From: a virus
Lineage: Duplodnaviria; Caudoviricetes
Direction: 5' to 3' (one strand)
Virus record (IMG/VR): IMGVR_UViG_3300027974_000031
Location: 1 to 64,000 of that record
Length of the DNA stretch: 64,000 bases
Position 1 is the stretch's first letter. Each line of letters begins with the position of its first letter. Of this stretch, positions 43,875-61,534 are shown piece after piece. Both the position numbers and the translations under genes were made by a program. The notes below the pieces were generated by a model. That model did no database searches. It saw only the letters and a list, made by a program, of their open reading frames with translations, and was not told where the DNA came from.

Positions 43875-44450
43875 TTAATCTTTAATACGAATGTTTTTTA
43901 CATCTAATCCAAGTTTATCTGCAATCTGTTCTAAAGTTAATTCAATAACCTTTGGTCGGTTATCAATGATAGTTCCTTTTGAATTTTCGGAATAGATTTT
44001 ATCTCCATTCAAGTTATACTCCCGCTTAATCCAATATCCATCTGTGTTTTCATAATAGATTTCTTTTCCATTCAAGTTATACTCCCGCTTATTCCAAAAT
44101 CCATCTGAGTTTTCATAATAGATTTCATTACCATTCAAGTCATATCCATGCTTATTCCAAAATCCATCTGAGTTTTCATAATAAATTTGTTTACCATTCA
44201 AGTTATACTCACACTTATTCCAATATCTATTTGAGTTTTCAGAATAGATTTGATTACCATTCTGGTCATACTCACGCTTAATCCAATATCCATCTGAATA
44301 TTCACAATAGATTTCTTTTCCATTCTGATCATACTCACGCTTAATCCAATATCCATCTGAGTTTTCAGAATAGATTAATTTATTATTCTTATCTTTGATA
44401 AAGAATGGGAAATCTTTTACCTTTAAAAATTGTGCTATTGTTTCTTTCAT
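43875..44450 (-). CDS. 21-aa-repeat paralogue, array 1 (191 aa)
   Basis: MKETIAQ..K..DFPF cap + (IYxExSxGxWxKxEYxxNGxx)n + IDNRPK.IELTL..IADKLG cap. Confidence 0.9.
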   Translation of the reverse strand: MKETIAQFLKVKDFPFFIKDKNNKLIYSENSDGYWIKREYDQNGKEIYCEYSDGYWIKREYDQNGNQIYSENSNRYWNKCEYNLNGKQIYYENSDGFWNKHGYDLNGNEIYYENSDGFWNKREYNLNGKEIYYENTDGYWIKREYNLNGDKIYSENSKGTIIDNRPKVIELTLEQIADKLGLDVKNIRIKD

Positions 44451-44462
44451 AATTTTATTTTT

Positions 44463-44912
44463 TTAATCTTTAATACGAAAGTTTTTTACATTCAATCCTA
44501 GTTTATCTGCGACTTCCTGTAATGTCAATTCGATAATTTTTGGTCGGTTATCAATGATAGTTCCTTTTGAATTTTCAAAATAGATTTCATTACCATTCAA
44601 GTCATACTCATGCTTAATCCAATATCCATCTGAATATTCACAATAAATTTGTTTACCATTCAAGTTATACTCACGCTTATTACAAAGTCCATCTGAGTTT
44701 TCATAATAGATTTCTTTTCCATTCAAATTATACTCACACTTATTCCAAAATCCATTTGAGTTTTCAGAATAGATTTGATTACCATTCTGATCATACTCAC
44801 GCTTAATCCAATATCCATCTGAGGTTTCAGAATAGATTTCTTTATTATCTTTATTTTTAATAAAGAATGGAAAATCTTTTACTTTTAATAGTTGTGCAAT
44901 TGTTTCTTTCAT
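44463..44912 (-). CDS. 21-aa-repeat paralogue, array 1 (149 aa)
   Basis: Same caps and repeat consensus. Confidence 0.9.
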   Translation of the reverse strand: MKETIAQLLKVKDFPFFIKNKDNKEIYSETSDGYWIKREYDQNGNQIYSENSNGFWNKCEYNLNGKEIYYENSDGLCNKREYNLNGKQIYCEYSDGYWIKHEYDLNGNEIYFENSKGTIIDNRPKIIELTLQEVADKLGLNVKNFRIKD

Positions 44913-44924
44913 AATTTTATTTTT

Positions 44925-45437
44925 TTAATCTTTAATACGAATGTTTTCTACATTCAATCCTAATTTATCTGCGACTTCCTGTAATGTCAATTCAATAATT
45001 TTTGGTCGGTTATCCATGATAGTTCCATCTGAGTTTTCATAATAGATTTGATTACCATTCTGGTCATACTCACACTTATTCCAATATCCATTTGAATCTT
45101 CAAAATAGATTTCATTACCATTCAAGTTATACTCACACTTATTCCAATATCCATTTGAATCTTCAAAATAGATTTGATTACCATTCTGGTCATACTCACG
45201 CTTATTCCAAAATCCATTTGAGGTTTCAGAATAGATTAAATTACTATTCTGGTCATATTCATGCTTGAACCAAAGTCCATCTGAATCTTCATAATAGATT
45301 TGATTACCATTCTGATCATACTCACACTTATACCAAAATCCATCTGAATATTCACAATAGATTTCATCTTCATCTTTATTTTTAATAAAGAATGGAAAAT
45401 CTGTTATCTTTAAAAATTGTGCTATTGTTTCTTTCAT
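44925..45437 (-). CDS. 21-aa-repeat paralogue, array 1 (170 aa)
   Basis: Same caps and repeat consensus. Confidence 0.9.
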   Translation of the reverse strand: MKETIAQFLKITDFPFFIKNKDEDEIYCEYSDGFWYKCEYDQNGNQIYYEDSDGLWFKHEYDQNSNLIYSETSNGFWNKREYDQNGNQIYFEDSNGYWNKCEYNLNGNEIYFEDSNGYWNKCEYDQNGNQIYYENSDGTIMDNRPKIIELTLQEVADKLGLNVENIRIKD

Positions 45438-45450
45438 AATTTTATTTTTT

Positions 45451-45963
45451 TTAATCTTTAATACGAATATTTTCTACATTCAATCCTAGTTTAGCTGCAA
45501 TCTGTTCTAAAGTTAATTCAATTACCTTTGGTCGGTTATCAATGATAATTCCATCTGAGTTTTCAGAATAGATTTCATTACCATTCTGATCATACTCACG
45601 CTTAGACCAACGTCCATCTGAATTTTCAAAATAGATTATGTTACCATTCTGGTCATACTCCCACTTAATCCAATATCCATCTGAATCTTCAGAATAGATT
45701 TCATTACCATTCTGGTCATACTCAGTCTTAAACCAATATCCATCTGAATCTTCACGATAGATTTGTTTACCATTCAAGTTATACTCACACTTATACCAAA
45801 ATCCATCTGAATCTTCACAATAGATTTCTTCTCCATTCAAGTTATACTCACACTTATACCAAAATCCATCTGAGTTCTCATAATAGATTTCATCTTCATC
45901 TTTACTTTTAATACAGAATGGAAAATCTGTTACCTTTAAAAATTGTGCTATTGTTTCTTTCAT
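45451..45963 (-). CDS. 21-aa-repeat paralogue, array 1 (170 aa)
   Basis: Same caps and repeat consensus. Confidence 0.9.
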   Translation of the reverse strand: MKETIAQFLKVTDFPFCIKSKDEDEIYYENSDGFWYKCEYNLNGEEIYCEDSDGFWYKCEYNLNGKQIYREDSDGYWFKTEYDQNGNEIYSEDSDGYWIKWEYDQNGNIIYFENSDGRWSKREYDQNGNEIYSENSDGIIIDNRPKVIELTLEQIAAKLGLNVENIRIKD

Positions 45964-45976
45964 AAAAAGATTTCTT

Positions 45977-46363
45977 TTAATCTTTGATACGAATGTTCTT
46001 TACATTCAGTCCTAATTTATCTGCAATCTGTTCTAAAGTTAATTCAATTACCTTTGGTCGGTTATCAATGATAGTTCCTTCTGAGTTTTCAGAATAGATT
46101 TCATTACCATTCTGGTCATATTCATGCTTATACCAAAATCCATCTGAATATTCACAATAGATTTCTTTACCATTCTGGTCATATTCACGCTTAATCCAAT
46201 ATCTATCTGAATCTTCACAATAAATTTGTTTACCATTCAAGTTATACTCACGCTTAATCCAGTATCCATTTGAATCTTCATGATAGATTTCTTTATTATT
46301 CTTATTTTTAATAAGGAATGGAAAATCTTTTACTTTTAATAGTTGTGCAATTGTTTCTTTCAT
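45977..46363 (-). CDS. 21-aa-repeat paralogue, array 1 (128 aa)
   Basis: Same caps and repeat consensus. Confidence 0.9.
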   Translation of the reverse strand: MKETIAQLLKVKDFPFLIKNKNNKEIYHEDSNGYWIKREYNLNGKQIYCEDSDRYWIKREYDQNGKEIYCEYSDGFWYKHEYDQNGNEIYSENSEGTIIDNRPKVIELTLEQIADKLGLNVKNIRIKD

Positions 46364-46392
46364 AATTTTATTTTTTTAATCTTTGATCGTCT

Positions 46393-46587
46393 TTATATTA
46401 ACTCAATCTTGGTTTCTGTCAAGTCTTTTCTATCTTGATTCTTCAATCGGGATTTAGCGAGCTTTCTAGCCCACTTTCTAAATTCCTGGATATTCTTAAT
46501 TTTTCGGCAGCAAGAACAGCCATATTTCAGTTCTTTCGTGCCCCCGTTCAGACATTCCTGCTTTTGAAGTTTTCTAAATTCGTCCAT
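46393..46587 (-). CDS. small basic protein with CxCC motif
   Basis: 64 aa, GCSCCRK...RKWARKLAKSRLK. Confidence 0.6.
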   Translation of the reverse strand: MDEFRKLQKQECLNGGTKELKYGCSCCRKIKNIQEFRKWARKLAKSRLKNQDRKDLTETKIELI

Positions 46588-46617
46588 GGCTAATTGTAGC
46601 TCTGATTAGTCTATTAG

Positions 46618-47343
46618 TCAAGCAGACAAATAATTTTTATTTGAATCAGTCAAACCTGAATGAATATTAATTTGCTGTCCATCACTATAACCTTTGTCTG
46701 CAACCAATGCATTATAATTATTAACTGATTTTCCGGTTTTATAAACAACATCTGGAAAAAACTTGTTAATAGCTTGTTTAAGCATTTCAGACGAATTCAC
46801 CAGCATTAGGCTATAATTAGCCTGCAAGTCGCTTGCTATAGTGCTTTCCGTTGCTTCCTGCATATCCTTTAGCTTCTTAGATAGACCTTGCCACAGTCCA
46901 CAAAAATAGCTTTCCCTAGCAGTTTTAACCGTAACTTGTGGATTGTTTTCATAAAATTTATACCAAAGATTGAAAAAAGTATTTGTAAGATATTCATTCA
47001 AAAACTTGGCAAATTCGATTTTGTCTTTTTTTCCAACAAAATAAATTTTGCGTCCAATCGAACGATTACCGCCAGTAATAATTTCAACTTCAAAATATTT
47101 CTTAATAATATTAGAAACAAATCGTTGAGTAATTGGCAACCTTGCTTTGTTCGTTTCCATTTCTTCCTTTTCAATTTGATCAGAAGAATAATTGGAAGAA
47201 ACCCTAGACAATTCGATATTGTGTAGAGTAGCCAGTTCAATAGCCTTTTCCATGGCAGCACTAGCTTCATGTTCGTTCGATGAACCGCTAAGGGCAATCA
47301 ATTTTTCCAACTTAACAAGGATTTTTTCGTTCGGATTGTTCAT
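46618..47343 (-). CDS. DUF2786-domain protein
   Basis: KILVKLEKLIALSGSSNEHEASAAMEKAIEL...HNI N-terminal motif. Confidence 0.8.
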   Translation of the reverse strand: MNNPNEKILVKLEKLIALSGSSNEHEASAAMEKAIELATLHNIELSRVSSNYSSDQIEKEEMETNKARLPITQRFVSNIIKKYFEVEIITGGNRSIGRKIYFVGKKDKIEFAKFLNEYLTNTFFNLWYKFYENNPQVTVKTARESYFCGLWQGLSKKLKDMQEATESTIASDLQANYSLMLVNSSEMLKQAINKFFPDVVYKTGKSVNNYNALVADKGYSDGQQINIHSGLTDSNKNYLSA

Positions 47344-49145: not shown

Positions 49146-49210
49146 AAGTTATTCTAAAAATGTGATTAGTTTGATAATTTTATTATTTTTATTTAAATAT
49201 TTTCTGTCAA

Positions 49211-49423
49211 CTACCTTTTCATTTTATTCCAGTCTCCAGCACAAATAGAATGTAAGAAGCACCAAAAATATGGTTTAAGATACCATTTAGAATACATATG
49301 GTTCTTCCATTCTTCCCGTGTTCGGCCATCGTTAGGATCATTCACCAATAGAAACGGAATTCCGCACAAAAGAAGGGAAGGAATAAACAAACAAAAAGCC
49401 AGAATACGAATTAAGATTTTCAT
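49211..49423 (-). CDS. small membrane protein
   Basis: N-terminal hydrophobic helix; TTGACA-N16-TATAAT-N5-ATG upstream. Confidence 0.7.
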   Translation of the reverse strand: MKILIRILAFCLFIPSLLLCGIPFLLVNDPNDGRTREEWKNHMYSKWYLKPYFWCFLHSICAGDWNKMKR

Positions 49424-49577
49424 GCTTTATTATACATCAAGGTTAATCGTTGTCAATGACTTTATGTTTATCCACCAGTTTAAATTTCTTTTGACTCATA
49501 ATTTCCCTAACTTGTTCCAAAGAAATAGGAGTGTAATTGTGGCAGTATCCAGTGCTTTAGTCAATTCGATTTTTAAC

Positions 49578-50366
49578 CTAATTTGTAAATTCAAGTTTTT
49601 TGTTGATAAGTTTTGGAAAACAGAAGTTCCAGACTGGAGCCGCTTGTTTCAAATATTTTACAAAATCGGCAAGTTCTTCTGGCTTGGAAGAATTAAAAGA
49701 CCAACTCATATCATCACACCCAAAAATATATACATGGTCATCATATACCCAAACACGCATATATGCTTCGTCACCAACAATTACTGGTTGTCCTGCATAA
49801 CGATCCGATTTAATCCAAAACTGTTCAACCACCCTTTCAGAATTTCTATTATAATATTCAGGATCATCTGTCAGGATTTCAGCATAGCAATTAATATCGA
49901 CTAAAACGGATTTGCGGGCCTTCTTACTCAATTTTCCATCATAGTTTTTGAAAAATTCATCTTGTCGTTTCATCATATCAAATGAACGTCCAGCACTTTC
50001 AAAAGAATCCTTTTTAGTCTGATTGAAACCAGTTTTCAACAAACTATCAGAAATATATTCTAGCCAACTAATCATTTGTTCGGTTGTTTCGGGAACAGGA
50101 ATTCTAAAAACATCATAAACATAGCTGAATAAATTATCAAAATAGAATTTGTCTTCTGCTGGTGTAATATCGAGTTTATTATTCTTACGACGATTTAGAA
50201 GTTCCATAATGATAGGAAAATCACAGTTATTATCCTGAATAAACTTCGCAATATCTTCGGGTGTCTGATATAGCGGAGGAAAATGGATAAAGTCGTTCGA
50301 TATATCGACTTTAGATAAGTCAATTTCACCGTCAGGAAGTTTTGGAAGATCGTTTTTCAGTTTCAT
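49578..50366 (-). CDS. hypothetical protein
   Basis: ORF; start probably at MKLKNDLPK rather than the TTG at 50435. Confidence 0.65.
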   Translation of the reverse strand: MKLKNDLPKLPDGEIDLSKVDISNDFIHFPPLYQTPEDIAKFIQDNNCDFPIIMELLNRRKNNKLDITPAEDKFYFDNLFSYVYDVFRIPVPETTEQMISWLEYISDSLLKTGFNQTKKDSFESAGRSFDMMKRQDEFFKNYDGKLSKKARKSVLVDINCYAEILTDDPEYYNRNSERVVEQFWIKSDRYAGQPVIVGDEAYMRVWVYDDHVYIFGCDDMSWSFNSSKPEELADFVKYLKQAAPVWNFCFPKLINKKLEFTN

Positions 50367-50376
50367 ATTACATTTT

Positions 50377-50580
50377 TTATTTTCTGTCACCAACAATTCC
50401 AATCCGTTTGCACCTATGTTTATTTGCCTTGGCAACCAATTCTTCTTCCTCGTTAAGGTCTGCCAAGGCTTTCCAATAAGCAGGATTCTTTTCTACTTCT
50501 TTAAAATATTTGGCAAATGGGTCATCTTCGGTAGAAAAATTAGTCTTAGCTAATTGCTGTATTGCGTCATTCCAATTCAT
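50377..50580 (-). CDS. small hypothetical protein
   Basis: 67-aa ORF. Confidence 0.6.
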   Translation of the reverse strand: MNWNDAIQQLAKTNFSTEDDPFAKYFKEVEKNPAYWKALADLNEEEELVAKANKHRCKRIGIVGDRK

Positions 50581-50584
50581 ATAA

Positions 50585-50824
50585 TTATTTCTTCGTTGGT
50601 GTTAAAAAGCATTCGTCCATTGCACATATATTAATGGTCTTCCCGTCAAGATTTAATACACCTCTATAATATGTCCTATTTCTACCTAAATCTTCTGTCA
50701 TACTTTCATCAACCACAAATTTGCAGCCATTCTGGTGTGTTTTATAATTTTCATCGTAATAATAAACAATTTCTCCATGTTTATATTTTGCGCGGGGATT
50801 ATCTTTTTGATATTTCATATTCAT
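50585..50824 (-). CDS. small hypothetical protein
   Basis: 79-aa ORF, TTGACT-N16-TATTAT upstream. Confidence 0.65.
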   Translation of the reverse strand: MNMKYQKDNPRAKYKHGEIVYYYDENYKTHQNGCKFVVDESMTEDLGRNRTYYRGVLNLDGKTINICAMDECFLTPTKK

Positions 50825-50885
50825 ATAATACCATTTTAGATCACAAAGTCAACATTTGATGTTGGGTTAGTATAAAAAAATAATT

Positions 50886-51269
50886 TTATTTTGTTTTTAG
50901 ATCTTCTAGTTCTTTTTGGTTAATGGTATAGGCTTTGATGGTTTCGTGGTTTAGTGAGTGAGCTTTTGCTAGTCTATGTACACCGTCAGCTATAAAGAGG
51001 CCGTCTGGGTATTTGACGATGATGATTGGGTATTTGAGGTCAGTTTGGTTGGCTCTTTCGATAAATTCTGGATGACCGGGTAGTTCTGATCCTTCTTCGT
51101 GTGGAGATGGTTCTAGGTTATGAAGAAGTTTAGAGATTGGTATTTCTTTTATTTTCTTATTTTTTTCTGCGTAGTTGACTATTCGTGGTACGGAGTAGGT
51201 GCCGTTGTTATCGGAGAAGGTTTGGTCTTCCATTCTGTAGGATTCAAAGAATTGTTTGAAGGTGATCAT
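50886..51269 (-). CDS. ParB/Srx-like domain protein with CTS-like leader
   Basis: DLKYPIII...IADGVHRLAKA; MITFKQFFES; TAAATA upstream. Confidence 0.75.
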   Translation of the reverse strand: MITFKQFFESYRMEDQTFSDNNGTYSVPRIVNYAEKNKKIKEIPISKLLHNLEPSPHEEGSELPGHPEFIERANQTDLKYPIIIVKYPDGLFIADGVHRLAKAHSLNHETIKAYTINQKELEDLKTK

Positions 51270-51423
51270 GATTTATTTAGTGGTTTTTTTATTTTTTAAG
51301 GTCTTGTTACAGGTCGAATATTTTTTGATAGTCATTTGGTTCCACTAGGTTTGATTCTAGTTCGTTTTGCATACAACACCATAATACAGGCTTTTTAAAT
51401 AAGTGCAACTTTATTATTTTTAT

Positions 51424-53771: not shown

Positions 53772-53882
53772 GGAGAAGATCGAACTACCATCTTAATTCA
53801 GAATATAGTCTTTTGGTTTAATGATTGGCGATTATTCAAATCCTATCATATTTTAACGGCCCGTTACCTACCGCTTATCTCC
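53772..53882 (-). ncRNA. candidate small structured RNA in the tRNA cluster
   Basis: Ends can pair (GGAGA/TCTCC); internal hairpins; T-loop-like AGATGGTAGTTCGATCT; no ORF. Confidence 0.35.
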
Positions 53883-53943
53883 ATTTTATATTACTCTATC
53901 CAACAAATTAACCTAATATTTCTCAATAAAGTTTTTATTTAAT

Positions 53944-54405
53944 TGGTCCCCTTGACAGGCCACGATCCTGCACATTCTTACGAATATCAGATTTTAAGTC
54001 TGCATCACAACTACGGTTTTCACCGCCATAAACGTTTAATTTGTAATTACTTACATTTCAAGTTTTACCGTTTTGTTTGTGTGCTGGACTATGCTTTCAT
54101 CTTTTAGTTTATTTCTAAATTAGATGGGTGATTATAGTCTCTGCACGTCTCCTTATATTAACCTTATCTCCTAGTCTGGATAGTAACTGATAACATAAGG
54201 CTTTATTAATTACACCATACTAGATTTAACGTCATTTAAGATTTCGCTCAACGTTGGGAGTTTTAGAGTTTTACGGACTTTTACCGTCATTTATGCGCTC
54301 TTGCATACATCTAAAATTAACCGTTCATTGAATTTACACCATTTAGATATAGATTTCTCTATAAATGCACCGTTATAATGCGTCTGCCAATTCCGCCACA
54401 AGGGG
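53944..54405 (-). tRNA. tRNA-Leu(UAA), split by a group I intron in the anticodon stem
   Basis: Exon 1 54405-54378 CCCCTTGTGGCGGAATTGGCAGACGCAT; exon 2 54002-53944 CAGA-CTTAAAA-TCTGA, variable arm, GCAGG-ATCGTGG-CCTGT CAAGGGG A CCA. Confidence 0.88.
54003..54377 (-). mobile_element. group I intron (375 nt) between tRNA positions 27 and 28
   Basis: P AAATTCAATGAAC, Q AACGTTGAGCG, R GTGCAGAGACTA, S AAAGCATAGTCC; P1 GCAT/GTGC with U.G at the splice site; terminal G. Confidence 0.85.
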
Positions 54406-54471
54406 ATTAACACTAACAAAAATTTTGTCAAAGAACAGTTTAAATCAAACTTGGGAAAATCTTCCCTTTAA

Positions 54472-54696
54472 CTATCTTAACTTATCATCTTTTAGCTCTT
54501 TGTCAAACTCTTCTTCAACTTTAGTGACTCGTTCAGCTTCAATTTCCCAAAAATCCGAGTCTTGATCTTCGACAATTAGATTACCATTTTCGCGAATATC
54601 AGCAACTACTGCACAGAATCCGCCATAGGTCCAAGCATCACTTTCGTTAGGCTCAGGCATTAACACCGTATCAAGAACATTAAATTGTTTATTCAT
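54472..54696 (-). CDS. small acidic hypothetical protein
   Basis: 74 aa; TTGACA-N17-TAATAT-N5-ATG. Confidence 0.7.
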   Translation of the reverse strand: MNKQFNVLDTVLMPEPNESDAWTYGGFCAVVADIRENGNLIVEDQDSDFWEIEAERVTKVEEEFDKELKDDKLR

Positions 54697-54758
54697 ATTT
54701 TATATTACTCTATTTCTGTTGGTTTGTCAAATGTTTTGGATAATCCATAAAAAATTCA

Positions 54759-55397
54759 TTATATTTTCTTTTGGTAAAATTTGTGTCTAACTACAGTTTC
54801 TAAATTAGTTTTTTCAGCAATCATGGGCAACATCTGGTGTCTAACCCAATTTCTTTGATATTTTAAATCATTGTTTGTTGGATCAAATACCACCCATTTC
54901 ATTAAATCGTTTTTCTCTGCCCATTCTACCATCTGTTCTTTGGTTGTCAACAAAAAAGGATGATAAATCGTAAAATTGGGAAAAATAGTTTTTTCCTGAA
55001 TTGGTTTATATTCTGGACAACCCTTGAGGAAATTCATAAAAAATTGTTCTACACAATCTCCCAAATTATGAGCAGTCACATAATTAGTATGCCCTGTTTG
55101 TTCAGCCATATAGGCCAATCTCCATTGTCTGAAATCGTTTTCGGTCTGCTCACCTATAGATTGCTCTACCGACCTTGTAATAAATTGGAATGGTAAACTA
55201 TGCGCCGAACAAAAGTCTCTAACTGATTCTTCCATTTGTTTATTAGCAGGTTGCCAATTATGGTTAAAATGAAGAACCTTGATTTTTAATCTAGTTCTTT
55301 GGCTTAACCAGTGACATGAAGAAATAGAATCAACTCCTCCACTAACAAGGAAAGTATATTCTTTTTGCTTATCTAATAAATTATTAAAAATTTTCAT
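54759..55397 (-). CDS. tilS: tRNA(Ile)-lysidine synthetase (minimal PP-loop domain)
   Basis: VSGGVDS PP-loop, HFNH, R..R, TAHNLGD..E.F.MN..KG, HPFL, DPTN.D..Y.RNWVRH; likely start MKIFNN at 55397. Confidence 0.9.
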   Translation of the reverse strand: MKIFNNLLDKQKEYTFLVSGGVDSISSCHWLSQRTRLKIKVLHFNHNWQPANKQMEESVRDFCSAHSLPFQFITRSVEQSIGEQTENDFRQWRLAYMAEQTGHTNYVTAHNLGDCVEQFFMNFLKGCPEYKPIQEKTIFPNFTIYHPFLLTTKEQMVEWAEKNDLMKWVVFDPTNNDLKYQRNWVRHQMLPMIAEKTNLETVVRHKFYQKKI

Positions 55398-55499
55398 TTC
55401 TATTCTTGTTGTCAAGCAAATGTTGCTCAAATTCAGTTAACTCGCTGTCCGCAAGGTAGATAAAGGTCATGGCTCAATATACTTCGATTTTATAATCTG

Positions 55500-55898
55500 T
55501 CAATAGATAAAATGCGGAGTTTCAATCACTCCAAAATAAGTATTAAAATCAAAAATTCCTGATTTTGCACATTTCAAACACCATGCCAATTCTTTGTCCA
55601 GTTTAGGAATAATATATTGTTTCCTACGTTTACCGCGCAATTCTCCTACAGAATATCTTTGATTCTTTTCTGGATAATAAGAAATTTCGGTTTCAAAATT
55701 GGTAGAATTTGCCCACCGATCAAAAGTAGGTTTATATGCAAATTGAACAGCCCATTTTTTCTCTCCCGGTTCAATAAATTTAGGATCAATAACTTTTTCA
55801 AAAATGCGAATATGAAAATGGGTAGTTTTTCCACAACCATACTCAAGTTTGATATTGTGGCGGCGAAATTCATCCAAAATAGGGCGAGGTAGCTTCAT
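55500..55898 (-). CDS. hypothetical protein
   Basis: Likely start MKLPRP; flanked by 20-bp direct repeats. Confidence 0.65.
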   Translation of the reverse strand: MKLPRPILDEFRRHNIKLEYGCGKTTHFHIRIFEKVIDPKFIEPGEKKWAVQFAYKPTFDRWANSTNFETEISYYPEKNQRYSVGELRGKRRKQYIIPKLDKELAWCLKCAKSGIFDFNTYFGVIETPHFIY

Positions 55899-55917
55899 AA
55901 TACAATATACTTCAATT

Positions 55918-56127
55918 TTATACTTCGTCAAGAATATAATCAACGCCATCATCAATTGTTAATGGCCAGTAATATTCCATTTCGGTAATTGATTCATATT
56001 TCCAATTCATTTGACTACAAAAATCTTTTACAGTTTCAATAGATGGAGCATTAATCCATTTAACTAGATGGTCGGTTTCATCCGTATTAGGATCAAATCC
56101 TTCAAGTGTGACATCAAATGTTTTCAT
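55918..56127 (-). CDS. small acidic hypothetical protein
   Basis: 69 aa; flanked by 12-bp direct repeats. Confidence 0.65.
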   Translation of the reverse strand: MKTFDVTLEGFDPNTDETDHLVKWINAPSIETVKDFCSQMNWKYESITEMEYYWPLTIDDGVDYILDEV

Positions 56128-56408
56128 ACTTCGTCAATCTTCTTTTTGCTTATCCAACAAATTATTAAAAATTTTCATTTGTTTTATCTAAAGCTTGTCT
56201 AACTGCCATAATTAGACTATCTGGAGCATTTCGTAATTATTCATTCTTTAATGAATGACATTTTTCGCTCTGCCCTTGTATTCACTGAATTATTTTTTAT
56301 ATTTTTTATTACAATAAAAAATATAAAAAAGTAATGTAAAAAAATAAAATTTTAAAAAAATTACTTTTAGTTTTTGTTGAAGAATTTTATTTATTTTTAT
56401 TGCTTTTA

Positions 56409-56636
56409 TTATGTTATAAAAGCGTAAAATAACACAATTTCATCAAAAGTATAATCACGATTATTTGAAATGTCAACATATTTCGCCTCTGTTACGCGAG
56501 GATATAAAAAAGAATTCATTACATTTGTTATAATAAGAATTGTTCTTGTTTTGTTACATTCAAGAAAAATTGAATCATCTTCTTGAATGTCTCGCCAGAA
56601 AACGTCGGTTTTTCCATTGTTATTAAGAGGATTCAT
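56409..56636 (-). CDS. small hypothetical protein
   Basis: 75 aa; ATGA overlap with the upstream ORF. Confidence 0.55.
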   Translation of the reverse strand: MNPLNNNGKTDVFWRDIQEDDSIFLECNKTRTILIITNVMNSFLYPRVTEAKYVDISNNRDYTFDEIVLFYAFIT

Positions 56637-56785
56637 TCTTTTTCTTCTATTTCTTTATGTTTAGGATTTCGATTGTAATCTTTAACACTTTTATGCTTTT
56701 GAGGAGGTAAAGGAAGTTCTTTACGAATTTTCTTTTTTAAATCGCGATCACGAATAGTTCCAACTTTATGTACTTTCTTTTTCAT
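56633..56785 (-). CDS. 50-aa basic protein with ArfA-like C-terminal motif
   Basis: MKKKVHKVGTIRDRDLKKKIRKELPLPPQKHKSVKDYNRNPKHKEIEEKE; below the ORF-track cutoff. Confidence 0.55.
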   Translation of the reverse strand: MKKKVHKVGTIRDRDLKKKIRKELPLPPQKHKSVKDYNRNPKHKEIEEKE

Positions 56786-56812
56786 CTTCGTATGATAACA
56801 AATCAATTGGTT

Positions 56813-57169
56813 TTATTTATGAGTAATAAATTTATCTTCGATGGTAAACTTTTCGTCTTCCGTAGTTTCTAATGTGTATAGAAAAGAATAAAAAGGTTTT
56901 TGTTTTTCTTGCTCAATAGCATCTGCAAAAGTTTTTACAAAAACATTAACTTTTTTACAAGTACCTTTTATTACAAAACGAACAATTCCGCTTTTTCTCA
57001 ATTTTGCTCTTTCTTCTACATTACTTTTTAGAAGCGGCAGCAACGGCATTTCCAACTTATCAATTACACATTGAAACTTTGGCGACTTGCCTATTACAGG
57101 AATTTCTCTAAAAAGATAGTTTTGTGCAGCTTCTAGCTCTGTGATTGAACGTTCGGTATTAGTTTTCAT
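56813..57169 (-). CDS. hypothetical protein
   Basis: 118 aa with a TTGACA promoter upstream. Confidence 0.7.
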   Translation of the reverse strand: MKTNTERSITELEAAQNYLFREIPVIGKSPKFQCVIDKLEMPLLPLLKSNVEERAKLRKSGIVRFVIKGTCKKVNVFVKTFADAIEQEKQKPFYSFLYTLETTEDEKFTIEDKFITHK

Positions 57170-57562
57170 AAGAATATTATATTAGCGAGTTTATTGTTTG
57201 TGTCAACTATTTAATTTGATAATGCGATTTGAATGCGATTAAATTCTTGTGAAATATGATAAATTTGAGAATCATATTCGTCTAGCTTTCTGTCAAATTC
57301 TTTTAATGAATAATATCTTTCAAGAATAAGATTTTCTTTTTCTTTTTTCAAACGTAATAATTTTTCTTCCAAAGTTTCTTTCATTTTTTTGAATTAATTG
57401 TTTCTCAAAAAGGCTTTTCTCTTCATCTGTCATATCAAAAGTAATAAGAGAATGAATTGATTCGACGGCTCTTCCTTTTTTCATACTATGAATATATCTT
57501 TAAATTGTGATTTGTCAATAACAAAAATATACTATTATATAAAGTTATAAAATGAATATTTT

Positions 57563-58240
57563 TTAAGAAACAATAACGCCATTTGCAGTAAAAGAACGAT
57601 CAAGGTTCCAATCATTCTGAGAAATTGCAAAAAGCATATCTTTTGTTCGGTATTTAGTTTTTCTTAAAATCTGATTAGAATGATTTGCTAACCAAGAGTG
57701 ACGAATATTCAAATATTGTATAGTCCATTCTTTTTCATTTCCGCCTTTAGACGGAGTTTTTGCAGGAAAACGAGTTCTTAAAAAGTTTAAGATTCCTCCA
57801 GAATGAATAAAAGAATCATAAATTATAAGCATTGAAAGAGGTTGTGTAAAACCATTTTCTTTGAAAAATTCAAGTGCAGGATTCCAGTAATGTTCATCAA
57901 AAAAATCATCTTGTGCTTCTCTCATTACAGGGTCACTACCTGCTTCACGAAGCTCGTTTATAAGCTTTTCGTCATTAACTAGTGAGATTTTGCCAATCTT
58001 ATCTACATAAGGTTTAAAAAACTCACTATGTTTGCCATTTTTGTTAGAATAAGATTTAATTAATTTATTAAGATTTCCCCATTCAGTTGTTTGACTTTTG
58101 CCGTATGTTATTTGTTGTATTCCTTTTGGCCCATCGGAAAAAATTGTCACGTTACTGTAATCACCATCAGGTTTTCCAGTTTCAAAAACATTTAAAATGC
58201 TTTGTATTTTATCTTTCTTTTTAGTAATAGAATCACTCAT
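57563..58240 (-). CDS. chitosanase/GH46-like lysozyme-fold glycosidase, probable endolysin
   Basis: NVFETG...Y..V....DG....ITYGKSQTTE, DPVMREAQD.FFDE.YWNPA, IYDS.IHSG; TATAAATA-N5-ATG at 58240. Confidence 0.8.
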   Translation of the reverse strand: MSDSITKKKDKIQSILNVFETGKPDGDYSNVTIFSDGPKGIQQITYGKSQTTEWGNLNKLIKSYSNKNGKHSEFFKPYVDKIGKISLVNDEKLINELREAGSDPVMREAQDDFFDEHYWNPALEFFKENGFTQPLSMLIIYDSFIHSGGILNFLRTRFPAKTPSKGGNEKEWTIQYLNIRHSWLANHSNQILRKTKYRTKDMLFAISQNDWNLDRSFTANGVIVS

Positions 58241-58348
58241 AACTTTATTTATAAGTTTTTTAATTCTAGAAAAAAATAGTAACATAAAATTACTTATTTT
58301 AAAACATACATTAATATACCAAATATAAAGAATAAAACGAGAATAATT

Positions 58349-58936
58349 TTAACTAGAGAGTTGTTCGTAAAATGATATAATACTGTTACCTTTCTCATCA
58401 ACTCCTTTTTTATAGTGTTCAAAAGAAAGAATTTTTTTAGGCATTTTTTCAATTACGTTTTCTGTATAAATTGTTTTTAGAGGCCAATTTCTATATTTTT
58501 TCACATAATGATATGAATAAATATAAGCATTTGCTTCTAAAATATATTGTTTTAAATTAACATCTAAATTATGTTTTTTAATAAAATTTATAGAATTAAT
58601 TTCGCAATCTCTTTCTAATTCAATTGCTTTATTAAATGCTCTAGTTAGTTTATTTTTAGATGTTTCTTCTCCTTCTACCCAATTAAGAAATGGACATTTA
58701 TCTGCTTCACACTTTTTCCAAAACTTAGGATTATTTTTCCATTGAAGAAAATGATGGTATTCATGTATTAATATTTCAAATCCATTTATACTTTTATATG
58801 CACAAACAAGTTCTTTTTTATTAGAATCGAACCATCCGCCATAATTACCAACTTTTTCTTTTTGAATAATTTTTAAAGAAACATCATTTTCGATGCACTC
58901 AACAGCTACTTTTCCGATAAATTCATTTCGAGTCAT
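58349..58936 (-). CDS. zincin-like metallopeptidase-fold protein
   Basis: ILIHEYHHFLQW...LERDCE. Confidence 0.7.
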   Translation of the reverse strand: MTRNEFIGKVAVECIENDVSLKIIQKEKVGNYGGWFDSNKKELVCAYKSINGFEILIHEYHHFLQWKNNPKFWKKCEADKCPFLNWVEGEETSKNKLTRAFNKAIELERDCEINSINFIKKHNLDVNLKQYILEANAYIYSYHYVKKYRNWPLKTIYTENVIEKMPKKILSFEHYKKGVDEKGNSIISFYEQLSS

Positions 58937-58971
58937 GTTTTAACTTATCAGAAAAAACTTTAAAAGTTTTT

Positions 58972-59433
58972 TTAAACTTTGATATGAAGAATATTTACAT
59001 CCATTCCAAGTTTATCTGCAATTTCTTGTAAAGTCAACTCAATAATTTTTGGACGTTTATTAATGATAGTTCCTTTTGAGTTTTTATATGAGTTTTCAAA
59101 ATAAACTAATTTACCGTTACTATCATACTCATTCTTAACCCAATATTCATCTGAGTGTTCATAATATATTAAATTACCTTTATTATCATACTCACTCTTT
59201 GACCAAAATCCACTTGAATTTTCAAAATGAATTTCGTTACCATTCAAATCATACTCTTTTTTAAACCAATATCCATTTGAGTTCTCAAAATGGATTTCGT
59301 TACCGTTCTTGTCATACTCTTTTTTAAACCAATATCCATTTGATTTTTCAGAATAGATTTCTTTATTATCTGCATTTTTAATAAAGAATGGAAAATCTGT
59401 TACCTTTAAAAATTGTGCTATTGTTTCTTTCAT
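58972..59433 (-). CDS. 21-aa-repeat paralogue, array 2 (153 aa, most divergent)
   Basis: Same caps; 4-aa insertion near the C-terminal cap. Confidence 0.9.
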   Translation of the reverse strand: MKETIAQFLKVTDFPFFIKNADNKEIYSEKSNGYWFKKEYDKNGNEIHFENSNGYWFKKEYDLNGNEIHFENSSGFWSKSEYDNKGNLIYYEHSDEYWVKNEYDSNGKLVYFENSYKNSKGTIINKRPKIIELTLQEIADKLGMDVNILHIKV

Positions 59434-59446
59434 AAAAAGATTTCTT

Positions 59447-60148
59447 TTAATCTTTAATACGAATGTTTTCTACATCTAATCCTAGTTTATCTGCAATCTG
59501 TTCTAAAGTCAATTCAATAATTTTTGGTCGGTTATCAATGATAGTTCCTTTTGAGTTTTCATAATAGATTTTATTGCCATTCTGGTCATACTCCCGCTTA
59601 ATCCAATATCCATTTGAATCTTCAAAATAGATTTCTTTTCCATTCAAGTTATATTCACGCTTAGACCAACGTCCATTTGAATCTTCATAATAGATTTCTT
59701 TTCCATTCAAGTCATATTCACACTTATACCAAAATCTATCTGAGTTCTCATAATAGATTTGATTACCATTCAAGTTATACTCACGCTTAATCCAATATCC
59801 TTTTGAGTTTTCAGAATAGATTTTATTGCCATTCTGATCATGTTCACGTTTAGACCAATATCCATCTGAGGTTTCAGAATAGATTACATTACTATTCTGG
59901 TCATATTCACGCTTAGACCAACGTCCAACTGAGTTTTCATAATAGATTTCATTACCATTCAAGTCATATTCACACTTATACCAAAATCCATTTGAGTTTT
60001 CATAATAGATTACATTACCATTCAAGTTATACTCACACTTATACCAAAATCCATCTGAATCTTCACGATAGATTTCTTCTTCATCTTTATTTTTAATAAA
60101 GAATGGAAAATCTGTTACCTTTAAAAATTGTGCTATTGTTTCTTTCAT
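59447..60148 (-). CDS. 21-aa-repeat paralogue, array 2 (233 aa)
   Basis: Same caps and repeat consensus. Confidence 0.9.
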   Translation of the reverse strand: MKETIAQFLKVTDFPFFIKNKDEEEIYREDSDGFWYKCEYNLNGNVIYYENSNGFWYKCEYDLNGNEIYYENSVGRWSKREYDQNSNVIYSETSDGYWSKREHDQNGNKIYSENSKGYWIKREYNLNGNQIYYENSDRFWYKCEYDLNGKEIYYEDSNGRWSKREYNLNGKEIYFEDSNGYWIKREYDQNGNKIYYENSKGTIIDNRPKIIELTLEQIADKLGLDVENIRIKD

Positions 60149-60160
60149 AATTTTATTTTT

Positions 60161-60610
60161 TTAATCTTTAATACGAATATTTTCTACATTCAATCCTAGT
60201 TTATCTGCGACTTCCTGTAATGTCAATTCAATTACCTTTGGTCGGTTATCCATGATAGTTCCATTTGAATCTTCAAAATAGATTTCTTTTCCATTCAAGT
60301 TATATTCACGCTTAGACCAATATCCATTTGAATCTTCATAATAGATTTGATTACCATTCTGATCATACTCACACTTATTCCAAAATCCATTTGAGGTTTC
60401 AGAATAGATTAAATTACTATTCTTGTCATATTCATGCTTGAACCAACGTCCATTTGAATCTTCACGATAGATTTGATTACCATTCTGATCATACTCACAC
60501 TTATACCAAAATCCATTTGAATCTTCATGATAGATTTCTTTATTATTCTTATTTTTAATAAGGAATGGAAAATCTTTTACTTTTAATAGTTGTGCAATTG
60601 TTTCTTTCAT
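60161..60610 (-). CDS. 21-aa-repeat paralogue, array 2 (149 aa)
   Basis: Same caps and repeat consensus. Confidence 0.9.
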   Translation of the reverse strand: MKETIAQLLKVKDFPFLIKNKNNKEIYHEDSNGFWYKCEYDQNGNQIYREDSNGRWFKHEYDKNSNLIYSETSNGFWNKCEYDQNGNQIYYEDSNGYWSKREYNLNGKEIYFEDSNGTIMDNRPKVIELTLQEVADKLGLNVENIRIKD

Positions 60611-60622
60611 AATTTTATTTTT

Positions 60623-61072
60623 TTAATCTTTAATACGAATGTTTTCTACACTCAATCCTAATTTATCTGCAATCTCTTCTAAAGTCAATTCAATAATTTT
60701 TGGTCGGTTATCCATGATAATTCCTTTTGAATCTTCATGATAGATTTGTTTACCATTCTGATCATACTCACGCTTAAACCAATATCCTTTTGAATCTTCA
60801 TGATAGATTACTTTTCCATTCAAGTTATATTCACGCTTATACCAAAATCCATTTGAATCTTCAAAATAGATTTCTTTACCATTCAAGTTATACTCACACT
60901 TAATCCAAGATCCATCTGAATCTTCGAAATAGATTTGATTACCATTCTGATCATATTCATGCTTGAACCAATATCCATCTGAATCTTCAGAATAGATTTC
61001 TTTATTATTCTTATTTTTAATAAAGAATGGAAAATCTGTTACCTTTAAAAATTGTGCTATTGTTTCTTTCAT
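60623..61072 (-). CDS. 21-aa-repeat paralogue, array 2 (149 aa)
   Basis: Same caps and repeat consensus. Confidence 0.9.
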   Translation of the reverse strand: MKETIAQFLKVTDFPFFIKNKNNKEIYSEDSDGYWFKHEYDQNGNQIYFEDSDGSWIKCEYNLNGKEIYFEDSNGFWYKREYNLNGKVIYHEDSKGYWFKREYDQNGKQIYHEDSKGIIMDNRPKIIELTLEEIADKLGLSVENIRIKD

Positions 61073-61084
61073 AATTTTATTTTT

Positions 61085-61534
61085 TTAATCTTTAATACGA
61101 ATGTTTTCTACATTCATATCAAGTTTATCTGCAATCTCTTCTAAAGTCAACTCAATAACCTTTGGTCGGTTATCAATGATAGTTCCTTCTGAGTTTTCAT
61201 AATAAATTACGTTACTATTCTGGTCATGTTCACGTTTAGACCAATATCCATCTGAGTTTTCACGATAGATTAATTTTCCATTCTGGTCATATTCATTCTT
61301 ATTCCAATATCCTTTTGAATCTTCAAAATAGATTTCTTTACCATTCTGGTCATATTCACGCTTAATCCAGTATGCATCTGAGTTTTCATAATAGATTTCT
61401 TTTCCATTCAAATCATACTCTTTTTTAAACCAATATCCATTTGATTTTTCAGAATAGATTTCTTTGTTATTCTTTTCTTTGATAAGAAAAGGAAAATCTG
61501 TTATTTTTAAAAATTGCGCGATTGTTTCTTTCAT
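61085..61534 (-). CDS. 21-aa-repeat paralogue, array 2 (149 aa)
   Basis: Same caps and repeat consensus. Confidence 0.9.
   Translation of the reverse strand: MKETIAQFLKITDFPFLIKEKNNKEIYSEKSNGYWFKKEYDLNGKEIYYENSDAYWIKREYDQNGKEIYFEDSKGYWNKNEYDQNGKLIYRENSDGYWSKREHDQNSNVIYYENSEGTIIDNRPKVIELTLEEIADKLDMNVENIRIKD

What the first reader, a model, noticed from the sequence alone, without database searches (positions are those of the whole stretch)
43875..61534. Two tandem arrays (5+5 genes) forming a combinatorial library of 21-aa-repeat proteins
Seen: ten paralogues at 43875-46363 and 58972-61534 share near-constant N- and C-terminal caps around a variable number of 63-bp units. Lengths are 128/149/170/191/233 aa, i.e. 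steps of 21 (one is 153). In the unit IY-x-E-x-S-x-G-x-W-x-K-x-EY(D/N)(Q/L)NG the framework is fixed and alternate residues vary, mostly among Y/F/S/C/H/R/I/N. That is the pattern expected for one exposed face of a beta-hairpin repeat sheet. Genes are mosaics: 60161..60610 shares its first 26 aa with 45977..46363, and WFKHEYD.NSNLIYSETSNGFWNK plus its C-cap with 44925..45437. Inference: a recombination-diversified family of cytoplasmic binders expressed early, for example anti-defence proteins. I do not recognise it as a described system, and no function is evident from sequence.
Basis: partly seen in the sequence, partly recalled or inferred. Interest (0 to 1): 0.85.

Follow-up and report, generated by a model that had tools for sequence, protein, structure and literature searches.

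The report
Phage arrays of variable YD-repeat proteins
A large freshwater phage carries tandem arrays of small beta-hairpin repeat proteins, related to the Rhs/YD repeats of bacterial toxins, that keep a fixed scaffold and vary at alternate positions; this looks like a natural library of binding proteins whose targets are unknown.

Summary
Ten intact paralogues on the minus strand (43875-46363 and 58972-61534) share caps around 3-8 full units of 63 bp. An eleventh, C-truncated copy lies just outside the window. Framework codons are almost invariant, synonymous sites included. Unit positions 3, 5, 7, 9, 11 and 13 vary at codon bases 1-2.

The repeats are YD (Rhs-type) beta-hairpins. The AlphaFold model has pLDDT 94.5, the best PDB matches are Rhs shells (Z up to 11.8), and a profile hits Tse5 at E 1e-4. 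The proteins are too short to form a shell, carry no toxin or Rhs core, and match no curated family model.

The family is large and almost wholly viral: 1481 hits, and IMG/VR arrays of up to 14 genes whose lengths step by 21 aa.

A near-identical relative has flanking genes 98.4-99.0% identical in DNA, but a re-shuffled array at the same site (82-89% identical, different unit counts). Recombinational diversification is therefore supported. Positive selection is only suggested (pN/pS about 1.2 at the variable codons). Diversity-generating retroelement (DGR) mutagenesis is rejected.

My reading is an early-expressed cytoplasmic binder repertoire. Function, anti-defence included, is untested. Exact unit order in this short-read assembly is not independently verified.

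The parts
45977..46363 (-). A5, first gene of array A, 128 aa, 3 full units
   Evidence: AlphaFold2 model pLDDT 94.5
45451..45963 (-). A4, 170 aa, 5 full units
44925..45437 (-). A3, 170 aa, 5 full units
   Evidence: query
44463..44912 (-). A2, 149 aa, 4 full units
43875..44450 (-). A1, last gene of array A, 191 aa, 6 full units
61085..61534 (-). B5, first gene of array B, 149 aa, 4 full units
60623..61072 (-). B4, 149 aa, 4 full units
60161..60610 (-). B3, 149 aa, 4 full units; mosaic of A5-like 5' end and A3-like middle and C-cap
59447..60148 (-). B2, 233 aa, 8 full units
   Evidence: single-sequence AlphaFold2 model pLDDT 82.5, 18 strands
58972..59433 (-). B1, last gene of array B, 153 aa, 4 full units plus a 4-aa insertion in the half unit; most diverged copy
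46395..46422 (-). sigma-70-like promoter motif TTGACA-16-TAATAT (10 of 12), 32 nt upstream of the A5 start codon
   Evidence: consensus match only, the total count in the region is not above shuffles
43820..43855 (.). terminator-like palindromic hairpin (14 pairs) with A/T runs on both sides, 20 nt after the A1 stop codon
61657..61684 (-). sigma-70-like promoter motif TTGACA-16-TAAAAT (11 of 12), about 120 nt upstream of the B5 start
   Evidence: consensus match only

Best explanation
The arrays encode a virus-specific multigene family of small, acidic, cytoplasmic proteins. Each is a short open ribbon of YD (Rhs-type) beta-hairpins held between a fixed N-cap (a helix plus a strand) and a fixed C-cap (two short helices).

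Within each 21-aa unit, one set of residues forms an invariant scaffold: I1, Y2, E4, S6, G8, W10, K12, E14, Y15, D16, N18 and G19. Six alternate positions are hypervariable. I infer that positions 3, 11 and 13 lie on one sheet face and positions 5, 7 and 9 lie in the adjoining hairpin loop. Together they would make a customisable binding stripe whose length is set by the unit number (3 to 8).

Diversity arises by homologous recombination among the 63-bp units, the conserved caps and the conserved 12-13-nt spacers. Unequal exchange adds or removes whole units and whole genes. Short-tract conversion shuffles cassettes between genes and between arrays. Point changes are retained at the variable codons.

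The genes appear to be co-transcribed from host-type promoters in the non-structural, leftward-transcribed part of the genome. The most likely use is a repertoire of binders against variable host or competitor molecules, such as defence or takeover targets.

Shown: the anatomy, the fold class, the family spread, the site-specific variability, the mosaicism, and the fast turnover compared with flanking genes. Inferred: the face assignment, the timing of expression, binding as such, and the kind of target.
For: Anatomy and codon pattern:
- In 50 units TCA is used 50/50, TAT 48/50 and GGA 45/50. The variable codons change at bases 1-2.
- All 50 units are distinct, with 47 different combinations of the six hypervariable residues.

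Fold:
- A5 model pLDDT 94.5 with 9 strands; B2 model with 18 strands.
- Foldseek best hits are RhsA and Tse5, rmsd 1.8 over 82 columns.
- In the VIA-align 2 search the top 8 hits are all Rhs/Tc, Z 9.4-11.8.
- Profile against PDB sequences: Tse5 at E 1e-4 with the YD motif in register.

Family:
- 1481 hits at E <= 1e-3.
- 69 of 72 IMG/VR loci carry family ORFs, and 38 of those carry two or more. Arrays reach 14 genes and lengths step by 21 aa.
- The nearest ESM Atlas clusters are 98-100% viral.
- Only 8 hits in 185,579 cellular species, all in single-cell (SAG) or metagenome-assembled (MAG) genomes.
- The same conserved/variable periodicity holds in 433 units from 200 other ORFs.

Turnover:
- In relative L091 the flanking genes are 98.4-99.0% identical in DNA (pS 0.03-0.05). 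Array genes at matching positions are 82-89% identical. Gene lengths are 128/149/170/149/149 aa against 128/170/170/149/191 aa here.
- L092 has no array upstream of the same flanking gene.
- L094 has one family gene at a site that is empty here.

Recombination:
- Exact shared tracts reach 100 nt across arrays and 62 nt off register.
- The nearest unit lies in another gene at another ordinal position for 28 of 50 units, and in another array for 26 of 50.
- 57-62% of informative site pairs show all four gametes. The pairwise homoplasy (PHI) permutation test gives p < 0.0005 for the first 264 nt.

Selection:
- pN is 0.37 at the variable codons against 0.023 at the framework codons, with pS 0.31 and 0.25.

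Expression context:
- All nine sigma-70-like sites scoring at least 11 of 12 lie on the minus strand between 49 and 62 kb. One motif sits just upstream of A5 and a hairpin just after A1.
- 16 of 17 TATAAATA motifs lie in the structural part and none lies beside the arrays.

Protein properties:
- No signal peptide or hydrophobic stretch is visible in the N-cap.
- pI is 4.2-5.6.
Against: - No binding, target or phenotype is known for any member. The only homologue in a cultured phage (Verrucomicrobia phage P8625, gp42) is annotated as hypothetical.
- pN/pS at the variable codons is only about 1.2. It is confounded by recombination and saturation, so relaxed constraint at exposed sites is not excluded.
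- The PHI test is not significant for the seven 149-aa genes (p = 0.30).
- No gene partner is conserved next to the arrays.
- PADLOC, PHROGs and Pfam give no functional lead.
- The count of promoter-like sites is not above shuffles (108 against 101.1 +/- 9.3).
- RNA-library contigs cover the array, but such libraries can hold DNA.
- The window is a short-read assembly. In the four runs laid, k-mer contigs break at the array edges, so unit order and number are not independently confirmed.
- A study of comparable fungal repeats found Illumina assemblies unreliable (PMC11761791, passages read).
Confidence: 0.55

Rival explanations
1. Diversity without purpose. The family is a recombination-prone, perhaps selfishly amplifying repeat-gene family. 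The 'variable' positions are simply the solvent-exposed, weakly constrained ones. The paralogues would be functionally redundant (a dosage effect) or nearly neutral.
For: pN/pS is only about 1.2 at the variable codons. Decay is visible: the eleventh copy is C-truncated and has a C-cap remnant upstream. Arrays are absent or placed elsewhere in relatives. No partner gene is conserved.
Against: 10 of 11 copies are intact. The variable positions use a restricted alphabet rich in Y/F/S/C/H/R/N/I rather than whatever mutation offers. The same periodic pattern holds across hundreds of diverged proteins. All 50 units differ, although recombination could homogenise them.
Confidence: 0.15
2. Glycan- or cell-surface-binding module. 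The Tyr/Trp-rich hairpin repeats would bind polysaccharide, like cell-wall-binding or glucan-binding repeats. They would act outside the cytoplasm, for example as virion decoration or adsorption aids.
For: There are weak matches to the glucan-binding repeat TIGR04035 (E 3.5e-5, 23.9 bits against a cutoff of 147.7) and to glucansucrase chains (E 3.3). The family is 9.5% Tyr.
Against: There is no signal peptide. The arrays lie outside the structural module and away from TATAAATA motifs. The matches are far below the cutoffs. The fold matches Rhs sheets much better.
Confidence: 0.12
3. DNA-binding or regulatory proteins. The C-cap (…LTLEEIADKLGLxVENIRIKD) would be a minimal helix-turn-helix and the repeat part a sensor or oligomerisation module.
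For: Sigma70_r4 matches the C-cap in 7 of 10 paralogues (E 9.4e-4 to 0.29). The model shows two short helices there.
Against: Every score is below the Pfam cutoff (best 19.1 against 24.1 bits). The protein ends right after the second helix. The PDB profile search gave no helix-turn-helix protein. Some relatives replace or lack this cap (P0002, P0124 and P0131).
Confidence: 0.05
4. Assembly artefact. The arrays, or their unit order and number, would be chimeras made by short-read assembly of repeats from mixed strains.
For: k-mer contigs of four runs stop at 43943-43946 and 46355 and cover the inside only as pieces of about 80-160 nt. Fungal highly conserved repeats are mis-assembled from Illumina data (PMC11761791).
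Against: An independently assembled relative has five genes at the same site. Arrays recur in dozens of IMG/VR contigs. The longest exact repeat between copies is 100 nt, shorter than usual reads; that comparison is my inference. All ORFs are intact and in register.
Confidence: 0.05
5. Targeted hypermutation by a diversity-generating retroelement (DGR).
For: The variable codons are mostly NNT, and the residue set resembles what AAY codons can yield.
Against: A-rich framework codons are almost invariant: GAA 47/50, AAG 45/50 and AAT 47/50. Adenine-specific mutagenesis would not spare them. No reverse transcriptase is found in the 75-kb record, though the record is only 29% complete. Variation is spread over 11 genes and 50 units rather than one variable region with a template.
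Confidence: 0.01

Closest known systems
Rhs / YD-repeat proteins (T6SS Rhs effectors RhsA, Tse5, Tse15; TcB/TcC; teneurins; Pfam PF05593, PF25023)
   Same: The same roughly 21-residue beta-hairpin repeat with the (Y/F)-D-x-x-G turn. The fold superposes on the shell wall: Z 11.8, rmsd 2.0 over 87 residues, and rmsd 1.8 over 82 columns. Profile homology to Tse5 is E 1e-4. More distant viral clusters carry PF05593 and PF25023.
   Different: These proteins have 3-8 units against the dozens in an Rhs protein, so no closed cocoon can form. There is no Rhs core, autoprotease or toxin tip and no secretion-system link. They have their own caps. Curated models are not reached. They occur as tandem multi-gene arrays in phages.
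Repeats with high internal conservation in fungal NLR sensors (HET-E/HET-D WD40 repeats)
   Same: Units are highly alike and kept so by concerted evolution. A few hypervariable sites per unit lie on the predicted interaction surface. Unit gain, loss and shuffling occur by unequal and inter-paralogue recombination (PMC11761791, abstract and passages read). Here units are on average 80.7% identical in DNA, six sites are hypervariable and unit number changes.
   Different: The fold differs (WD40 propeller). In fungi the repeats are the sensor part of a large NLR protein of a eukaryotic host's immune system. Here they are free-standing small proteins of a virus.
Repeat-protein binder repertoires (lamprey VLR leucine-rich repeats; designed ankyrin-repeat libraries) - recalled, not tested here
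   Same: A fixed capped scaffold, randomised surface positions and a variable number of modules.
   Different: Different folds. VLRs are assembled somatically; here diversity is germline, between paralogues and strains.
Single-layer beta-sheet proteins (OspA central sheet; TCP domain of CPAP/SAS-4)
   Same: An open hairpin ribbon with no hydrophobic core. Structural matches: OspA mutants at E 3e-4 and TCP domains at Z 4.7-4.9. The PDB title of 4by2 shows a TCP sheet bound to a proline-rich motif.
   Different: No sequence relation, and the Z values are weak.
Verrucomicrobia phage P8625 gp42 (YP_009221585.1)
   Same: The only homologue in a cultured phage among 50,697 phage records: 44.8% identity over residues 1-96, 152 aa, in the replication/recombination gene region. 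It scores E 6.6e-58 against the family profile.
   Different: Single copy, a marine phage with a 32.9-kb genome, annotated as hypothetical.

Membership tests
Rhs/YD-repeat proteins | Curated repeat models reached (Pfam PF05593 RHS_repeat; NCBIfam TIGR01643 YD_repeat_2x) | tested here: not met
   No RHS_repeat hit at E <= 1 in 10 of 10 paralogues. TIGR01643 scores 14.0 bits against a cutoff of 15.8 in 1 of 4 window paralogues scanned. RHS_core scores 18-25 bits against a cutoff of 2000.
Rhs/YD-repeat proteins | Beta-hairpin repeat fold of the Rhs shell wall | tested here: met
   In the VIA-align 2 search the top 8 hits are all Rhs/Tc chains, Z 9.4-11.8. Foldseek gives RhsA at E 1.4e-5 and rmsd 1.8 over 82 columns.
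Rhs/YD-repeat proteins | Detectable sequence homology of the repeat, with the YD motif in register | tested here: met
   The family profile hits Tse5 at E 1e-4, Tse15 at 1.3e-4 and RhsP at 1.8e-3 among 177,635 PDB sequences.
Rhs/YD-repeat proteins | Closed shell of many repeats with an Rhs core and an encapsulated C-terminal toxin | tested here: not met
   The proteins are 128-233 aa with 3-8 units and end in a 30-aa cap. No core or toxin domain is found.
Repeats with high internal conservation (as in fungal NLRs) | Units at least about 80% identical, with hypervariability confined to a few sites | tested here: met
   Mean unit DNA identity is 80.7%, range 65-98%. Framework pN is 0.023 against 0.37 at six codons.
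Repeats with high internal conservation (as in fungal NLRs) | Unit-number polymorphism and shuffling between close relatives | tested here: met
   Window against L091: 128/170/170/149/191 aa against 128/149/170/149/149 aa between flanks that are about 99% identical.
Repeats with high internal conservation (as in fungal NLRs) | Repeats form the sensor domain of an NLR (NACHT or NB-ARC) protein | tested here: not met
   These are stand-alone small proteins with no further domain.
Diversity-generating retroelement target | Adenine-specific variation against a template repeat, with a reverse transcriptase nearby | tested here: not met
   A-rich framework codons are invariant. No RVT_1 match in the 75-kb record, which is 29% complete.
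   None of these appears at E <= 1 in 10 of 10 paralogues. BFVD lists MORN proteins only at E >= 0.015.
   7 of 10 paralogues match positions 20-38 of the 50-position model at E 9.4e-4 to 0.29. The best score is 19.1 bits against a cutoff of 24.1.
Known anti-phage defence proteins (PADLOC) | Match to any PADLOC model | tested here: not met
   0 families at E <= 0.01 for the 3 paralogues scanned, and for 4 neighbouring proteins.

The most novel reading that the evidence does not exclude
Phages carry a germline repertoire of modular binders. It would be a viral counterpart of the repeat-based recognition repertoires of host immune systems (VLRs, highly conserved NLR repeats). Each capped YD-ribbon paralogue would neutralise or hijack a different variable host molecule, most plausibly defence proteins or their strain variants. 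Unit shuffling among arrays would let the phage population generate new specificities quickly. If so, one uncharacterised protein family would account for part of host-range evolution in many aquatic phages, and it would offer a new natural scaffold for binder engineering.
Probability: 0.25. Interest if true: 0.9.

Novelty: new variant of a known kind. Interest (0 to 1): 0.7.

Why it matters
If these are binders, this is a large, virus-restricted family of recognition proteins that has gone unnoticed. It has no curated model in the libraries searched, and its only cultured-phage member is annotated as hypothetical. Its evolutionary mode mirrors the repeat-based immune receptors of eukaryotes, but on the virus side of the conflict.

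It also shows that the Rhs/YD hairpin can exist as a short, capped, free-standing ribbon. That gives a minimal single-layer beta-sheet scaffold with a natural map of which positions tolerate change, which is useful for protein engineering.

Practically, such arrays are hot spots of strain-level variation and likely trouble spots for short-read assembly of environmental phage genomes.

Tried and rejected
- Self-association: a two-copy complex prediction of the 128-aa paralogue gave no verdict (score 0.00). It is no evidence either way.
- PF27963, precomputed on one homologue (P0028), is not in the local Pfam copy and appears in no paper. What it describes could not be learned.
- PHROGs gave only sub-threshold fragments.
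- Phage DNA search (blastn) of array A found no match.
- Close relatives in IMG/VR through flanking genes: none for the AAA_25 protein. One distant relative (46% identity, L090) was found for the gene at 58349-58936, and it has no family gene nearby.
- Conserved neighbours: clustering 2219 ORFs within 4 kb of family genes gave no family present in more than 9 loci.
- Pfam hits on the long relatives (DUF6602, LRR_RPS2 and others) had no stretch passing on its own. I take them as repeat noise.
- Read laying. No contig bridges the array in any of the 4 runs. Two joints in run X5 have sides of only 39 and 29 letters in repeated sequence, so I do not count them: one skips 399 nt (one gene plus spacer), the other has a net loss of 63 nt (one unit). 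RNA-library contigs over the array, with none over 46389-46700, are at most a weak hint of transcription.
- TATAAATA is a late-promoter motif recalled from T4. Its total count (17) is not above chance (14.45 +/- 4.16); only its distribution is suggestive.
- Literature: searches found no paper describing small phage YD-repeat gene arrays. Supplements were not consulted.

Full report
**Setting.**
The window is the first 64 kb of a 75,059-base IMG/VR virus record that CheckV rates 29% complete. It is a distant T4-like myovirus. The portal protein matches phrog_213 at E 1.5e-86 and there is a baseplate wedge protein. The best portal relatives among 50,697 phage records are cyanophages at about 31% identity. 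GC content is 25-40%. Runs holding the array are labelled freshwater or lake metagenomes; 18 runs from 11 studies are listed. Structural genes fill 1-36 kb. From about 37 kb onwards almost all genes run leftward and are of the replication/repair or unknown-function kind: DUF932, DUF7227, an AAA_25/DnaB-like ATPase, DUF2786/DUF7168, a GH46-like protein and UvdE.

- Ten minus-strand genes lie at the stated coordinates, with lengths 191/149/170/170/128 aa and 153/233/149/149/149 aa.
- Each gene has a 25-aa N-cap (MKETIAQ(F/L)LK..DFPF.IK....), 3-8 full 21-aa units, a half unit (IY.E.S.G then (T/I)I(I/M)DNRPK) and a C-cap (.IELTL(E/Q)(E/Q)(I/V)A.KLG..V.NIRIKD).
- The 153-aa gene carries a 4-aa insertion in the half unit.
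- Genes are 12-13 nt apart, and the spacer itself is conserved, mostly aaaaaataaaatt.
- An eleventh copy lies at 64179-64577 of the record, outside the window. Its C-cap is truncated and a C-cap remnant plus spacer lies upstream, so a third array is decaying.

**Codon-level pattern.**
- Among the 50 full units the framework codons are nearly invariant, synonymous sites included: TCA 50/50, TAT 48/50 at two positions, TGG 49/50, GGA 45/50 and ATC 45/50.
- Unit positions 3, 5, 7, 9, 11 and 13 take 5-8 residues each through changes at codon bases 1 and 2, with T mostly kept at base 3.
- Positions 16/17 switch between DQ and NL, and positions 20/21 among a few pairs.
- Nei-Gojobori counts over all unit pairs give pN 0.37 and pS 0.31 at the six hypervariable codons, against pN 0.023 and pS 0.25 in the framework.
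- All 50 units are different, with 47 distinct combinations of the six residues.
- Neighbouring variable positions are statistically linked (3-5, 9-11, 11-13, 16-17). Distant ones mostly are not. Short cassettes, not single sites, seem to be the exchanged elements.

**What the repeat is.**
- Pfam gives nothing above threshold. MORN, RHS_repeat and DUF2963 are all absent from the hits. PHROGs and PADLOC give nothing.
- NCBIfam gives only far sub-threshold matches to the Rhs core (E 3.2e-6, 25 bits against a cutoff of 2000) and to the YD repeat.
- I aligned the 128-aa paralogue with 72 of the 120 hits listed, chosen for a length of about 125-134 aa.
- With that alignment AlphaFold2 gives a confident model: pLDDT 94.5, with an N-terminal helix, nine strands in consecutive hairpins and a C-terminal helix.
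- The 233-aa paralogue folds from its single sequence into 18 strands (pLDDT 82.5; the N-cap is poorly modelled).
- Foldseek against the PDB puts Rhs effectors first: RhsA at E 1.4e-5 and Tse5, both with rmsd 1.8 over 82 columns. Teneurins, Tc toxins and the single-layer sheet of OspA follow.
- An exhaustive alignment against 48,161 chains gives Rhs/Tc chains as the top eight hits, Z 9.4-11.8.
- A profile of the alignment finds Tse5 (E 1e-4), Tse15 (E 1.3e-4) and RhsP (E 1.8e-3) by sequence, with the family's EYDxNG on the Rhs YDxxG.
- The units are therefore YD repeats. With 3-8 of them and no Rhs core or toxin, these proteins cannot be shells. They are short open ribbons with caps of their own.

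**Where the variable residues sit (inference).**
- DSSP puts unit positions 21-4 and 10-15 in strands, and positions 5-9 and 16-20 in turns.
- The one hairpin register that is consistent along the sheet puts Y2, E4, W10, K12 and E14 on one face. This would be a conserved aromatic and salt-bridge ladder.
- The same register puts I1, x3, x11, x13 and Y15 on the other face, with x5, x7 and x9 in the adjoining loop.
- The hypervariable residues would then form one stripe along one face and one edge.

**The family.**
- A word-indexed search gives 1481 proteins at E <= 1e-3 among 1710 candidates. Most are 105-170 aa and come from metagenomes.
- A full HMM scan of 1.84 billion cluster representatives gives 8213 at E <= 1e-3, 2726 at E <= 1e-10 and 310 at E <= 1e-30. 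The weaker ones include ordinary giant Rhs proteins.
- The nearest ESM Atlas clusters are 98-100% viral.
- In IMG/VR, 132 of 320 candidate stretches encode relatives, and 72 loci were kept. 69 of those 72 loci have family ORFs and 38 of the 69 have two or more. Runs reach 14 (L013), 10 (L049) and 9 (L017) tandem genes. Lengths cluster at about 84, 105, 126, 147 and 168 aa. Some loci overlap on one contig, so these counts are not independent.
- Among one genome each of 185,579 cellular species only 8 loci were found. All are in single-cell or metagenome-assembled genomes, most on short contigs.
- Among cultured phages only Verrucomicrobia phage P8625 has a copy, the hypothetical protein gp42.
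- The conserved/variable periodicity is the same in 433 units from 200 ORFs of other loci: entropy is below 0.7 bit at positions 1, 2, 4, 6, 8, 10, 12, 14 and 16, and above 2.1 bits at positions 3, 5, 7, 9, 11, 13, 17 and 21.
- Longer relatives exist. Some have another C-terminal domain (P0002). Others string several modules (a different N-module plus repeats) into one ORF of 631-947 aa (P0124 and P0131).
- No gene family is a regular neighbour of the arrays.

**Turnover.**
- The metagenome contig L091 carries the two genes flanking array A at 99.0% and 98.4% DNA identity (pS 0.034 and 0.053).
- Between them lie five family genes of 128/149/170/149/149 aa, where the window has 128/170/170/149/191 aa.
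- Equal-length genes at matching positions are only 82-89% identical in DNA. Their pS is 0.18-0.38, and pN at the variable codons is 0.21-0.42.
- Synonymous divergence four to ten times that of the flanks means segments were replaced, not just mutated.
- A more distant relative (L092, flanking gene 83% identical) has unrelated small ORFs instead of the array.
- Another relative (L094) has a single family gene between the homologues of 41616-42293 and 40993-41547, where the window has none.
- Within the genome, exact tracts are shared across arrays: A5/B3 share 100 nt, and B3/C1 share 81 nt.
- Between the window and L091, B2 and R3 share 81 nt, and A4 position 336 matches R4 position 147 over 62 nt off register.
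- The most similar unit lies in another gene at a different ordinal position for 28 of 50 units, and in another array for 26 of 50.
- 57-62% of informative site pairs show all four gametes.
- A PHI-type permutation test is significant for the first 264 nt of the 11 or 16 genes (0 of 2000 permutations). It is not significant for the seven 149-aa genes (p = 0.30), where incompatibility is saturated at all distances.

**Against DGR mutagenesis.**
A-rich framework codons (GAA, AAG, AAT) are invariant. No reverse transcriptase is found in the record, though the record is incomplete.

**Expression (weak).**
- All nine sigma-70-like sites scoring at least 11 of 12 in 42.6-62.5 kb are on the minus strand.
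- A TTGACA-16-TAATAT motif ends 32 nt before the first gene of array A. A 14-pair hairpin with T runs follows the last gene.
- The total number of promoter-like sites is no higher than in shuffles.
- 16 of 17 TATAAATA motifs lie in the structural part.
- Contigs from an RNA library cover the array, but this does not prove transcription.

**Assembly caveat.**
In the four runs laid, k-mer contigs end at the array borders and only short exact pieces lie inside. Work on comparable fungal repeats found short-read assemblies unreliable (PMC11761791, abstract and passages read). The existence of arrays is secure, because they were assembled independently many times. The exact order and number of units in this window is not.

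**Reading.**
The evidence best fits a germline repertoire of capped YD-ribbon binders that diversifies by unit and gene shuffling. Its nearest evolutionary analogue is the highly conserved repeats of fungal NLR sensors, here on the virus side. That they bind anything, when they are made and what they target remain untested. Anti-defence is the most natural guess, but only a guess.

No description of such phage arrays was found in the paper library.

Noticed in passing
outside the window: G000 64179-64640 (minus strand): An eleventh family gene (132 aa, 4 full units) ends early: its C-cap reads ...DNRTEIIENTLC and then stops. Upstream lie the last codons of another C-cap (…GVENIRIKD, stop) and the usual spacer. 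A third array therefore seems to be decaying.
   Followed up: partly
window 53675-53759 and 52223-52300 (minus strand): The phage carries tRNA-Tyr(GTA) and tRNA-Arg(TCT) genes between the two arrays. The repeat family is 9.5% Tyr against 5.1% in the other long ORFs, so the tRNA-Tyr might serve its translation.
   Followed up: no
window 61650-61627 and 61577-61554: A 24-nt inverted repeat (23 of 24 complementary, arms 49 nt apart) spans the end of the small ORF 61596-61757 and ends 20 nt before the first gene of array B. I read it directly. Its function is unknown; it could be a regulatory hairpin or a recombination site.
   Followed up: partly
window 61828-62316 (minus strand): The 162-aa ORF just upstream of array B has a sub-threshold match to rifampin ADP-ribosyltransferase (Arr-ms, E 0.002, 18.7 bits against a cutoff of 25). 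It may be an ADP-ribosyltransferase-like early protein.
   Followed up: no
window 49182-61684 (minus strand): Nine near-perfect sigma-70-type promoter motifs (at least 11 of 12, eight of them with an exact TTGACA) all point leftward. This suggests a block of early genes read by the host polymerase.
   Followed up: no
window 57563-58285 and 62634-63572 (minus strand): A GH46 (chitosanase-family) protein (E 3.5e-15) and a UvdE UV-damage endonuclease (E 4.2e-37) flank array B. Both are unusual cargo for a T4-like phage.
   Followed up: no
proteins P0124 (947 aa) and P0131 (631 aa): In some metagenome relatives, several modules are strung head to tail in one ORF. Each module has a different helical N-module of about 55 aa, 3-6 units, and the motif IIDNRNNINESEDK. 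They look like a polyprotein or a fused array.
   Followed up: no
locus L094 2468-2794: In a relative whose flanking DNA is about 82-84% identical, a single family gene sits between the homologues of window genes 41616-42293 and 40993-41547. The window has only a 68-nt gap there. Family genes therefore appear at different intergenic sites in related phages.
   Followed up: partly
window 43875-46363 and 58972-61534, other frames: The repeats also open ORFs of 52-62 aa in other frames and on the plus strand (for example 44198-44356, 46048-46236 and 45092-45268). These are by-products of the periodic sequence, not genes.
   Followed up: partly
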